Below are positions 52,902 to 53,863 of a DNA stretch of 64,000 nucleotides, in pieces (the first letter of the stretch is position 1; every line of letters begins with the position of its first letter). A model generated the notes under the pieces. It did no database searches. It saw only the letters and a program-made list of their open reading frames with translations, and had not been told where the DNA came from. This DNA is from a virus: UHGV virus genome UHGV-0026213; one strand, written 5' to 3'. A program made the position numbers and the translations under genes.

Positions 52902-53072
52902 ATGGAAGAATTAGAGGCGGTTCCCTGTTACATTCCTAGAAGACGTGTTATAAAAGAATGTTACATCGATCGTATTTTGATCTCTCGTATCAAGAAAGGT
53001 CCAAGAAAACATCAAAACAAGAAGGTATTTATTTATAAATACTTCGAAAAGGTTATAATCCGACCTTACTGA
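52902..53072 (+). CDS. Small basic protein, KGPRK family member 1 (56 aa)
   Basis: Below the ORF-track cutoff. ..DRILISRIKKGPRKHQNKKVFIYKYFEK.. shares its core with the 53499 and 53681 products. Confidence 0.4.
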   Translation: MEELEAVPCYIPRRRVIKECYIDRILISRIKKGPRKHQNKKVFIYKYFEKVIIRPY

Positions 53073-53100
53073 TTAAATTAACTCAGGGAGTAAATTCATT

Positions 53101-53490
53101 ATGTCAATCGATATCTACGTTTATTCATACTCAAAATCCGCTGTAAAAGAATCCGTGCGTCAGGCTTGGGAGCACCAATATTACGTCGATCATGTTGACG
53201 ACATACTCGGAGAAATATTCGATCAGGGTGAATTAATGTGGACGGAAAGGCTGTCGTTTTGTTGGAACGCATTTAACAAACTTAAATCCGAATTCAATAT
53301 AACGACGGTATGCGGTAGCAGTGAATTCGCAATCAATAAAGAACAACTCACCGCTTTTAAACAATATATTGAAGAATTGGATCAGCTCATTCCACGCGAT
53401 GAATGGAAACAGCGCGCGTTGGAAGAATTGCAAAAGCTAATCGAAACTTTCGATTTTGAAAGTAATTATCTCACTTTGCACACCGATTAA
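53101..53490 (+). CDS. Hypothetical protein
   Basis: 129-aa ORF. Confidence 0.5.
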   Translation: MSIDIYVYSYSKSAVKESVRQAWEHQYYVDHVDDILGEIFDQGELMWTERLSFCWNAFNKLKSEFNITTVCGSSEFAINKEQLTAFKQYIEELDQLIPRDEWKQRALEELQKLIETFDFESNYLTLHTD

Positions 53491-53498
53491 GGTGAACT

Positions 53499-53684
53499 AT
53501 GGGGGCTAATATGTTAGACGATGTTCTTAATTTCACGATAACGTATTTCGAGCCGAAGAAGTTCCGTACCATTGTTACACGTTGGTGCAAAGGGCCACGT
53601 AAAGGACGTAAACGTTTCCAAGTAATCCAATTTGATTATTCCAAGTTCCTTGAATCTAACCCATTCGAGAAGGAGGAACAATGA
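53499..53684 (+). CDS. Small basic protein, KGPRK family member 2
   Basis: ..FRTIVTRWCKGPRKGRKRFQVIQFDYSKF.. Confidence 0.5.
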   Translation: MGANMLDDVLNFTITYFEPKKFRTIVTRWCKGPRKGRKRFQVIQFDYSKFLESNPFEKEEQ

Positions 53685-53863
53685 AGAAGCCATATTTTCA
53701 TAACCTCAGATTCTTTACAGGTACTCTATATTTTATTGGTTACAACCGTGTACGTAAGGGACCTGGTAAATCGAAAGTACGCACTGTGCAATATAAAAAG
53801 GCAATGACCGCGTCAGTTCCATTACGGATGGGCCTGCTTCTGTCTCACATTCGCCATCGTTAA
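53681..53863 (+). CDS. Small basic protein, KGPRK family member 3
   Basis: AAGGAGG RBS and an ATGA overlap. ..FIGYNRVRKGPGKSKVRTVQYKKA.. Confidence 0.5.
   Translation: MKKPYFHNLRFFTGTLYFIGYNRVRKGPGKSKVRTVQYKKAMTASVPLRMGLLLSHIRHR

What the first reader, a model, noticed from the sequence alone, without database searches (positions are those of the whole stretch)
52902..53863. Three small basic paralogues sharing a +KGP(R/G)K core, one of them missed by the ORF track
Seen in sequence:
- S1 (52902..53072, 56 aa): ..DRILISRIKKGPRKHQNKKVFIYKYFEK..
- S2 (53499..53684): ..FRTIVTRWCKGPRKGRKRFQVIQFDYSKF..
- S3 (53681..53863): ..FIGYNRVRKGPGKSKVRTVQYKKA..

The common pattern is a hydrophobic strand, then R/K-KGP-R/G-K-x2-K/R-x2-V-x2-aromatic, which suggests a beta-hairpin with a basic tip. 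S2 and S3 overlap (ATGA). S1 is separated from them by an unrelated 129-aa gene. I recognise no known family.

Inference: these could be nucleic-acid- or ribosome-binding micro-proteins, for example host shut-off factors, histone-like proteins or RNA chaperones.
Basis: seen in the sequence. Interest (0 to 1): 0.5.

Follow-up and report, generated by a model that had tools for sequence, protein, structure and literature searches.

The report
Basic hairpin microproteins of jumbo phages
Three neighbouring genes of about 60 codons in this E. coli jumbo-phage fragment encode related, strongly basic mini-proteins from an undescribed family found only in two jumbo-phage lineages; they are real and under selection, but their function (my best guess is nucleic-acid binding) is untested.

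Summary
S1 (52902-53072), S2 (53499/53511-53684) and S3 (53681-53863) are intact + strand ORFs. KGP[RG]K occurs three times in all six frames of the 64 kb, only in these ORFs (0.04-0.09 expected), with different codons. Pairwise BLASTP is not significant, but subfamily profiles match (hhalign E 5e-6 to 3e-3). A profile built only from E. coli phage Goslar proteins picks exactly these three ORFs out of 1,856 six-frame pieces.

Goslar gp139/138/137 are a matching trio, also downstream of thyA. An exhaustive HMM search of 1.84 billion proteins found the family only in these two phiKZ-like clades. No Pfam, PHROG, PADLOC, PDB or literature match exists.

The proteins have pI 9.5-11.7 and median dN/dS 0.25-0.38. 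S1 is absent, and S2 broken or diverged, in some close relatives, so these are accessory genes.

Best guess, untested: oligomeric nucleic-acid-binding "basic arm" proteins. Anti-defence or host-takeover roles are equally open. This is a real orphan family of modest interest.

The parts
52902..53072 (+). S1, a 56-aa basic microprotein (pI 9.95, net charge about +8.6). It is the orthologue of Goslar gp137.
   Evidence: ORF. It is 42-46% identical to the Goslar gp137 type. The Goslar-only HMM scores it at E 2.4e-8. Median dN/dS is 0.38. It is absent from L007, L008, L009, L012, L013, L015 and L066.
52992..53009 (+). S1 core loop KKGPRK
   Evidence: It lies in the loop between the predicted strands 24-29 and 40-45 of the low-confidence S1 model.
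53499..53684 (+). S2, a 61-aa ORF whose probable start is the ATG at 53511 (57 aa). pI 9.5. It is the best-conserved paralogue.
   Evidence: ORF. Homologues mostly start MLDDVL. There are 28 invariant columns in A5. hhalign against the Goslar gp139 group gives E 4.8e-6. Median dN/dS is 0.34. The AlphaFold model has pLDDT 71.
53586..53615 (+). S2 core loop CKGPRKGRKR, the tip of the beta2-beta3 hairpin
   Evidence: strands 17-25 and 34-42, loop 26-33.
53681..53863 (+). S3, a 60-aa microprotein (pI 11.7, net charge about +14, no acidic residues). It overlaps the S2 stop codon (ATGA) and has an AAGGAGG ribosome-binding site.
   Evidence: It is present in all 13 window-clade genomes examined. Median dN/dS is 0.25. 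The window form is a truncated version; relatives have 71-74-aa forms that keep a C-terminal NPF/NPL motif.
53753..53776 (+). S3 core loop RKGPGKSK
53861..53863 (+). S3 stop codon TAA, in the same reading frame as the downstream acidic-peptide ORF. In relatives L007 and L013 this position is a sense codon, and S3 is fused to the peptide as a 120-aa protein.
53906..54049 (+). 47-aa acidic peptide (pI 4.05, net charge about -9.5) ending in CSGGACKI. It is not a family member; its only link to S3 is the in-frame fusion seen in some relatives.
   Evidence: Matches phrog_14561. dN/dS is about 0-0.06. It is conserved in 48 SPN3US-, Machina- and CR5-like phage records. Fusions are shown.
53101..53490 (+). 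129-aa acidic gene inserted between S1 and S2. It is not a family member but a lineage-specific insertion that took over the former S2 leader sequence.
   Evidence: Absent from L005, L006 and L014 but present in L010 and L011.

Best explanation
**What is shown.** S1, S2 and S3 are tandem paralogous genes for strongly basic microproteins of 56-61 aa. They belong to an undescribed protein family confined to two lineages of phiKZ-like (Chimalliviridae-type) jumbo phages associated with E. coli. One lineage is the Goslar group, where the members are gp139, gp138 and gp137. The other is the roughly 222-228-kb clade this window belongs to. In both lineages the genes sit in a same-strand block just downstream of thymidylate synthase. 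All three are under purifying selection, and gene content varies among close relatives, so they are accessory genes.

**What is predicted.** Each protein forms a three-stranded antiparallel beta-meander followed by a short C-terminal helix or NP[FMWL] motif. The conserved [KR]-K-G-[PC]-x-K-[GSH]-[KR] stretch is the exposed tip of the long beta2-beta3 hairpin.

**What is inferred.** The sheet carries hydrophobic and aromatic residues on both faces, so it probably pairs with a second copy or with a paralogue. That would leave two or more lysine/arginine-rich hairpin 'arms' projecting. These arms would bind nucleic acid, either phage or host DNA or RNA including rRNA. The mode would resemble the basic beta-ribbon arms of HU/IHF and of several ribosomal proteins, or an arginine-rich beta-hairpin peptide binding an RNA groove. 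The proteins would tune an infection step that matters only in some hosts or conditions rather than performing a core function.
For: **Family and paralogy.**
- Motif enrichment is shown.
- The Goslar-only HMM picks exactly the three ORFs.
- The indexed profile search returned 105 proteins at E <= 10, nearly all short and mostly from contigs of about 220-250 kb.
- The exhaustive HMM search of 1.84e9 representatives returned 11 hits at E <= 0.001. Ten are family members; the eleventh, P0110, is a 351-aa repetitive protein I judge unrelated.

**Synteny.** The genes lie downstream of thyA in Goslar and in Goslar-like contigs.

**Host.** A relative of the window clade exists as a 221,873-bp circular replicon in E. 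coli 98232.

**Selection.** Median dN/dS is 0.38, 0.34 and 0.25 for S1, S2 and S3.

**Accessory nature.** S1 is absent, and S2 is frameshifted or diverged, in close relatives.

**Structure.** The S2 model has pLDDT 71, with the hairpin region at 80-82. The low-confidence S1 model has the same strand order.

**Basic and aromatic character.** pI is 9.5-11.7, with 11-15 K+R in all six proteins and 7-10 aromatic residues in five of the six; Goslar gp138 has only 2.

**Coupled expression.** S2 and S3 overlap as ATGA, and S3 has a strong Shine-Dalgarno sequence.

**Background knowledge.** Basic beta-hairpin arms as nucleic-acid-binding elements are established for HU/IHF and ribosomal proteins. I am citing this from memory; it was not tested here.
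Against: - There is no experimental or homology-based evidence for nucleic-acid binding.
- The structural model has only moderate confidence and rests on a shallow, low-diversity alignment.
- Basic charge alone is a weak predictor of function.
- The Goslar gp138 type replaces the proline with C, Y or V, so a proline-tip intercalation mechanism like that of IHF cannot be general.
- The hypervariable gene content fits anti-defence or host-takeover genes equally well.
- The published Goslar virion study does not mention gp137 or gp138, and names gp139 only as a PhiKZ protein, so I found no localisation data.
Confidence: 0.35

Rival explanations
1. These are protein-targeting accessory factors: anti-defence or host-takeover inhibitors. 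Each microprotein would bind and block a host protein, such as a defence sensor or effector, RNA polymerase, or a nuclease or protease. Paralogue diversification and gain/loss would track differences between host strains.
For: - The locus is highly plastic among near-identical phages. S1 is present or absent, S2 is frameshifted (L008) or carries a novel N-terminus (L066), S3 occurs in three length forms, and an unrelated 129-aa gene is inserted.
- dN/dS of 0.25-0.38 is several times higher than in the flanking genes, at 0.05-0.16 and about 0.
- Tandem paralogy and a narrow lineage distribution are typical of counter-defence islands. That generalisation comes from general knowledge.
Against: - There is no match to any PADLOC or other family, though that library holds defence proteins, not anti-defence proteins.
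- The strictly conserved part is a lysine/arginine-rich loop, not a variable interface.
- Many DNA-mimic inhibitors are acidic, whereas these proteins are very basic.
- No partner is known.
Confidence: 0.3
2. These are ribosome- or translation-directed microproteins. The basic hairpin would insert into rRNA like an extension of a ribosomal protein, biasing translation towards phage mRNAs. This is a special case of nucleic-acid binding.
For: - Size, charge and the predicted beta-hairpin resemble ribosomal-protein extensions.
- From memory, the C-terminal hairpin of E. coli bL27 (...[20 protein letters not shown]) looks like the core motif.
- Jumbo phages are known to encode early ribosome-binding proteins. 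This is from memory and I did not check it.
Against: - The family profile searched against all PDB chain sequences, which include many ribosome structures, retrieved nothing but a phosphatase at E 0.29, even at E <= 10.
- Pfam ribosomal families do not match.
- The resemblance to bL27 is a short motif recalled from memory, not a statistical match.
- The genes are dispensable in close relatives.
Confidence: 0.1
3. S3, and perhaps its paralogues, work together with the adjacent acidic 47-aa CSGGACKI peptide as a charge-complementary pair. The acidic peptide would mask or deliver the basic hairpin, or the basic protein would chaperone the peptide.
For: - In L007 and L013, S3 and the peptide form one 120-aa ORF. 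In the window they are in the same frame, separated by a single TAA.
- The net charges are about +14 and -9.5.
- They are adjacent in all window-clade genomes examined.
Against: - The peptide is conserved in 48 SPN3US-, Machina- and CR5-like phage records. tblastn with S1-S3 found no family member in any of them, apart from a weak S1 hit to Goslar gp137, and the Caitlin locus has none next to the peptide. The peptide's function therefore does not require the family.
- In L005 and L006 the two ORFs are in different frames.
- The fusion could be a tolerated loss of a stop codon, with the peptide still initiated internally.
Confidence: 0.1
4. These are chance ORFs, or decaying gene remnants with no function. 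The shared pentapeptide would be a coincidence of basic, low-complexity sequence.
For: - Pairwise BLASTP is not significant.
- Annotation pipelines often skip them.
- Some copies are clearly decaying: S2 in L008, and the truncated S3 in the window.
Against: - The motif is enriched more than 30-fold over expectation and is confined to these ORFs.
- Detection across phage lineages is significant.
- All six subfamilies are conserved across dozens to hundreds of contigs.
- dN/dS is well below 1 for all three.
- S3 has a consensus ribosome-binding site.
Confidence: 0.05

Closest known systems
Escherichia phage vB_EcoM_Goslar gp137, gp138 and gp139 (QBO63930, QBO63931, QBO63932; annotated as hypothetical proteins)
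   Same: They belong to the same protein family. They share the [KR]KG[PC]xK[GS][KR] loop between hydrophobic strands, an N-terminal P-x-Y/F island and a C-terminal NP[FMW] island. They form three tandem copies downstream of thyA, are 48-67 aa long and have pI 9.8-10.7.
   Different: Only S1 and gp137 are clear orthologues (42-46% identity). S2 and S3 match the Goslar proteins only at profile level. The gene order differs: gp137 is third in Goslar while S1 is first here. gp138 lacks the proline. None has a described function, and I found no paper mentioning them.
Beta-ribbon 'arms' of HU/IHF-type nucleoid proteins, and the basic beta-hairpin extensions of ribosomal proteins
   Same: The predicted architecture is a long antiparallel beta-hairpin whose tip is rich in Lys, Arg and Gly and usually contains a proline. 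The overall charge is strongly basic and the proteins are small. This is a 'works like' analogy only.
AT-hook (R-G-R-P core), and the AT-hook-like Q/R-G-R loops of H-NS and Lsr2
   Same: Both are short Gly/Pro/Arg/Lys-rich elements that could lie in a DNA minor groove. Several members carry K-G-R or K-G-K after the proline.
   Different: The core order is K-G-P-x-K, not G-R-P. Here the element is embedded in a folded beta-hairpin rather than a disordered linker. There is no Pfam match. The comparison rests on memory of those motifs.
Arginine-rich beta-hairpin RNA-binding peptides (for example the BIV Tat ARM, recalled from memory)
   Same: Both are Gly/Pro/Arg/Lys-rich segments that adopt a beta-hairpin and could fit an RNA major groove.
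   Different: ARMs are short peptides within larger proteins and are arginine-dominated. These are independent folded microproteins, and lysine is the invariant residue. I could run no test of this comparison.

Membership tests
Goslar gp137-139 / window S1-S3 microprotein family (undescribed, defined here) | A significant match to a profile built from members in the other phage lineage | tested here: met
   The Goslar-only HMM scores S1 at 2.4e-8, S3 at 3.8e-3 and S2 at 4.9e-3. These are the top three of 1,856 six-frame pieces, and the next hit is at 0.48.
Goslar gp137-139 / window S1-S3 microprotein family (undescribed, defined here) | The core [KR]-K-G-[PC]-x-K-[GSH]-[KR] flanked by hydrophobic strands, plus the N-terminal P-x-Y/F and C-terminal NP[FMWL]/P-aromatic islands | tested here: met
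   Alignments A3 and A9. The window S3 has lost the C-terminal NPF through a premature stop, but its 74-aa relatives keep it.
Goslar gp137-139 / window S1-S3 microprotein family (undescribed, defined here) | Tandem arrangement on the same strand, downstream of thymidylate synthase, in a phiKZ-like jumbo phage | tested here: met
HU/IHF (Pfam Bac_DNA_binding, PF00216) | A profile match, and a helical dimerisation body carrying the beta-arms | tested here: not met
AT-hook (Pfam PF02178) | A G-R-P core tripeptide flanked by basic residues | tested here: not met
   The core here is K-G-P-(R/G/N)-K, and no member has G-R-P. There is no Pfam hit.
Ribosomal protein bL27 | Sequence homology to the bL27 family | tested here: not met
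   There is no Pfam hit. The family profile searched against all PDB chain sequences at E <= 10 returned only a tyrosine phosphatase. The resemblance is limited to a motif of about 10 residues recalled from memory.
Sso7d/Cren7-type or chromodomain-like small DNA binders | An SH3-like five-stranded barrel, or three strands plus a packed C-terminal helix, detectable by fold comparison | tested here: not met
RelE/ParE-type toxins | A significant fold or sequence match | tested here: not met
   The only matches are Foldseek E 1.8-9.7 with the low-confidence S1 model. There is no Pfam hit.
Any nucleic-acid-binding protein class (functional, not evolutionary) | Demonstrated binding to DNA, RNA or ribosomes | not testable with these tools
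   Only charge and predicted shape are available.

The most novel reading that the evidence does not exclude
The family is a new class of phage-encoded 'basic-arm' microproteins specific to E. coli nucleus-forming jumbo phages. They would assemble as homo- or hetero-oligomers, possibly regulated by the adjacent acidic CSGGACKI peptide. They would bind nucleic acid in a compartment-specific way, for example organising phage DNA inside the phage nucleus or capturing ribosomes or mRNA at its surface. Their fold has no detectable relative.
Probability: 0.12. Interest if true: 0.65.

Novelty: new variant of a known kind. Interest (0 to 1): 0.36.

Why it matters
Jumbo phages of the phiKZ/Goslar type are a model for virus-built, nucleus-like compartments, and most of their small genes are unannotated. 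This analysis defines an orphan family that annotation pipelines miss, including PGAP and metagenome gene callers. The family has a clear signature, a defined distribution (two lineages associated with E. coli) and evidence of selection.

Goslar is experimentally tractable in E. coli, so gp137-139 can be tested directly by knockdown, localisation and binding assays.

If the proteins bind nucleic acid or ribosomes, they would add a new minimal binding fold. If they are counter-defence factors, their presence/absence pattern could help explain host-range differences among these phages. If neither holds, the result is an ordinary lineage-specific accessory gene family.

Tried and rejected
- **Pairwise BLASTP among S1-S3** was not significant, so I replaced it with profile and cross-phage tests.
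- **tblastn of each protein against 50,697 phage records** gave only a weak S1 hit to Goslar gp137 (E 0.4). This was the lead that opened the family.
- **Family libraries** gave nothing for the family. Pfam and PHROGs were run on the window ORFs, Pfam again on 50 members at E <= 10, and PADLOC on S1-S3 plus Goslar gp137-139.
- **PDB sequence profile search** gave nothing meaningful.
- **A genome-contig scan with S2** found no relatives.
- **AlphaFold of S1** gave pLDDT 54, too poor to use. Foldseek against PDB with that model gave E above 1.
- **DNA- or RNA-level explanations.** Rfam gave one sub-threshold hit (S15 leader, E 0.49). Direct and inverted repeats are at chance level, including a 14-nt imperfect inverted repeat flanking S1. 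The motif codons are not conserved at the DNA level.
- **The idea that S1-S3 are fragments of one broken multi-repeat gene, or are joined by frameshifting,** is rejected. Each has its own start, S3 has a consensus ribosome-binding site, and Goslar keeps three separate ORFs.
- **The bL27 C-terminal hairpin resemblance** (from memory) is not supported by any search.
- **Literature searches** found no paper dealing with Goslar gp137-139.
- **Cluster member P0115 (463 aa)** turned out to be an unrelated clustering artefact.

Full report
**1. The observation**

The three ORFs exist exactly as described:
- S1 is 52902-53072 (56 aa).
- S2 is 53499-53684 (61 aa). An internal ATG at 53511 gives the 57-aa form that most homologues use.
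- S3 is 53681-53863 (60 aa).

All three are on the + strand. S2 and S3 overlap as ATGA, and S3 is preceded by AAGGAGG.

The pentapeptide KGP[RG]K occurs three times in the six-frame translation of the whole 64-kb window, and only in these three ORFs. The expectation is 0.09 from amino-acid frequencies and 0.04 from shuffles, and none of 200 shuffles reached three. The codons of the motif differ at synonymous positions, so what is conserved is protein, not a DNA or RNA element. Rfam and repeat searches gave nothing above chance.

**2. Is it more than a shared pentapeptide?**

Pairwise BLASTP among the three is not significant. What changed the picture was a weak tblastn hit of S1 to E. coli phage Goslar.

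Just downstream of thyA, Goslar has three small annotated genes with the same signature:
- gp139: ..VKNKKGPRKGKWRY..
- gp138: ..KHKKGCNKGKRF..
- gp137: ..VKRGPGKGRQKKVGIYK..

A profile of the six proteins retrieved 105 proteins at E <= 10. Nearly all are short, and most come from contigs of about 220-250 kb. They fall into six subfamilies, that is, three paralogues in each of two phage lineages.

The alignments show three conserved islands rather than one:
- an N-terminal aromatic-x-P-x-Y/F island;
- the core, which is a hydrophobic strand, then [KR]-K-G-[PC]-x-K-[GSH]-[KR], then a second hydrophobic strand;
- a C-terminal NP[FMWL] island.

Profile-profile comparisons between subfamilies gave the following:

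| Comparison | hhalign E |
|---|---|
| S1 group vs S2 group | 1.4e-4 |
| S1 group vs S3 group | 3e-4 |
| S2 group vs S3 group | 2.6e-3 |
| S2 group vs gp139 group | 4.8e-6 |
| S3 group vs gp138 group | 0.25 (not significant) |

As an independent test, I built an HMM only from Goslar-lineage proteins and searched all 1,856 stop-to-stop pieces of the window. The top three hits were S1 (2.4e-8), S3 (3.8e-3) and S2 (4.9e-3), and the next was at 0.48. The paralogy is real.

**3. Distribution and context**

An exhaustive HMMER search of 1.84 billion representative proteins found only 11 hits at E <= 0.001. All are family members except one repetitive, unrelated protein. No member matches Pfam, PHROGs, PADLOC or any PDB sequence. 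All public copies are labelled 'hypothetical protein'. I found no paper that mentions Goslar gp137-139, including the recent Goslar virion structure and proteomics preprint and its supplements.

The window comes from a phiKZ-like jumbo phage:
- Its neighbours include a DUF7941 protein, a domain which the Goslar preprint describes as exclusive to chimalliviruses.
- It encodes a virion protein shared with 289 phiKZ-, SPN3US- and Erwinia-type phage records.
- A relative of the same clade is present as a 221,873-bp circular replicon in a urinary E. coli isolate. There PGAP left the S2 and S3 homologues unannotated.

**4. Evolution of the locus**

I compared the window with 12 relatives from its own clade. 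The locus is strikingly plastic:
- S1, S2 and S3 are contiguous in L005, L006 and L014. The 129-aa acidic gene at 53101-53490 in the window is therefore an insertion, and it took over the former S2 leader sequence.
- S1 is missing from seven relatives. One of them is L012, whose neighbouring MazG gene is 98% identical to the window's.
- S2 is frameshifted in L008 and carries a novel N-terminus in L066.
- S3 is present in all 13 genomes, but in three forms: 60 aa (the window, ending at a premature TAA), 71-74 aa with a C-terminal NPF/NPL motif, and a 120-aa in-frame fusion with the downstream acidic 47-aa peptide (L007, L013).
- In the window, the S3 stop codon is in frame with that peptide ORF.

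Despite this flux, median pairwise dN/dS is 0.38 for S1, 0.34 for S2 and 0.25 for S3. That indicates purifying selection, though weaker than on the flanking genes, which score 0.05-0.16 and about 0. In L011 a deletion fused the start of the upstream gene to S1 in frame (P0048). These are expressed accessory genes, not junk.

**5. Structure**

With the family alignment, AlphaFold gave a poor model for S1 (pLDDT 54). The model for S2 is usable, with mean pLDDT 71 and 80-82 over residues 21-40. Its elements are:
- strand 6-12;
- strand 17-25;
- loop 26-33 (CKGPRKGR);
- strand 34-42;
- a short helix at 44-47.

The S1 model has the same strand order.

**6. Mechanism (inference)**

The conserved element is an exposed hairpin tip rich in Lys, Arg and Gly, set on an aromatic-rich sheet in a small, very basic protein. 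The simplest reading is nucleic-acid binding through projecting basic arms, as in HU/IHF or in ribosomal-protein extensions. I put this at about 0.35.

The gain/loss pattern and the relatively fast evolution fit a host-strain-dependent role, such as counter-defence or host takeover by protein binding, about equally well (0.3). A ribosome-directed role (0.1) is a sub-case of nucleic-acid binding. The bL27 resemblance I recalled was not supported by any search. The S3-peptide fusions suggest a possible functional link to the acidic CSGGACKI peptide (0.1). However, that peptide is conserved in many SPN3US-, Machina- and CR5-like phages in which I detected no family member.

None of these readings can be tested computationally here.

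**7. Comparison with known families, and novelty**

Membership of HU/IHF, AT-hook, bL27, Sso7d/Cren7-like and RelE families was tested and not met. The only family these proteins belong to is the undescribed Goslar gp137-139 group.

I classify the finding as a new variant of a known kind, namely small basic phage accessory proteins with a hairpin-arm architecture. Nothing yet points to a categorically new mechanism, so I do not rate it higher. Interest is modest (0.36). The family is real, clean and experimentally accessible in Goslar, but orphan microprotein families are common in jumbo phages.

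Noticed in passing
window 53906-54049 (+): A 47-aa acidic peptide, MTEEVKVETVKETDEFAIPGLDPEATVEKGADPTTEDDNCSGGACKI, with an invariant C-terminal C-x-G-G-A-C-K-I. It is under very strong purifying selection (dN/dS about 0-0.06). It is conserved in 48 SPN3US-, Machina- and CR5-like jumbo-phage records, all annotated as hypothetical. It matches phrog_14561, phrog_38753 and phrog_24014, all of unknown function. It is followed by a GC-rich hairpin. In L007 and L013 it is fused in frame to S3.
   Followed up: partly
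window 50541-52076 (+): The thymidylate synthase is 511 aa, against 344-346 aa in close relatives (L005-L008, L011). It carries an in-frame insertion of about 210 aa, roughly residues 81-290. The insertion matches the non-catalytic, DNA-binding region of phage 'HNH endonuclease' families (phrog_2081, E 3.9e-29) and has no Pfam match. It looks like a homing-endonuclease-derived domain embedded in ThyA without recognisable intein motifs. L009 and L010 have the same 511-aa form.
   Followed up: partly
window 53101-53490 (+): A 129-aa acidic protein (pI 4.6) with no family match, inserted between S1 and S2. It is present in L010 and L011 and absent from the other 10 window-clade loci examined. It took over the intergenic leader that precedes S2 in L005 and L006.
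   Followed up: partly
L066 = NZ_CP173450.1 188789-194825 (E. coli 98232 'plasmid' p98232-contig_4): A complete 221,873-bp circular replicon in a clinical E. coli assembly is in fact a jumbo phage of the window's clade (88.8% identity over the thyA-MazG block). This fits reports of virulent jumbo phages persisting in bacterial isolates. PGAP annotates no gene in the 390-nt stretch that holds the S2 and S3 homologues.
   Followed up: partly
window 52881-52894 and 53063-53076: An imperfect 14-nt inverted repeat (TTAATCAGTGGGGT / ACCTTACTGATTAA) brackets the variably present S1 gene. By my rough estimate its length and identity are within chance expectation for a 1.9-kb region, so I give it no weight.
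   Followed up: no
window 52084-52380 (+) and 52438-52884 (+): Two genes lie upstream of the trio. One is a 98-aa protein with a weak C-terminal HTH resembling sigma-70 region 4 (Pfam E 9e-4 to 5e-3, below the gathering threshold). The other is a 148-aa phrog_2586 protein conserved as far as Erwinia phage Caitlin gp245. Both are deleted in relative L008, apart from a short N-terminal remnant of the 148-aa gene.
   Followed up: no
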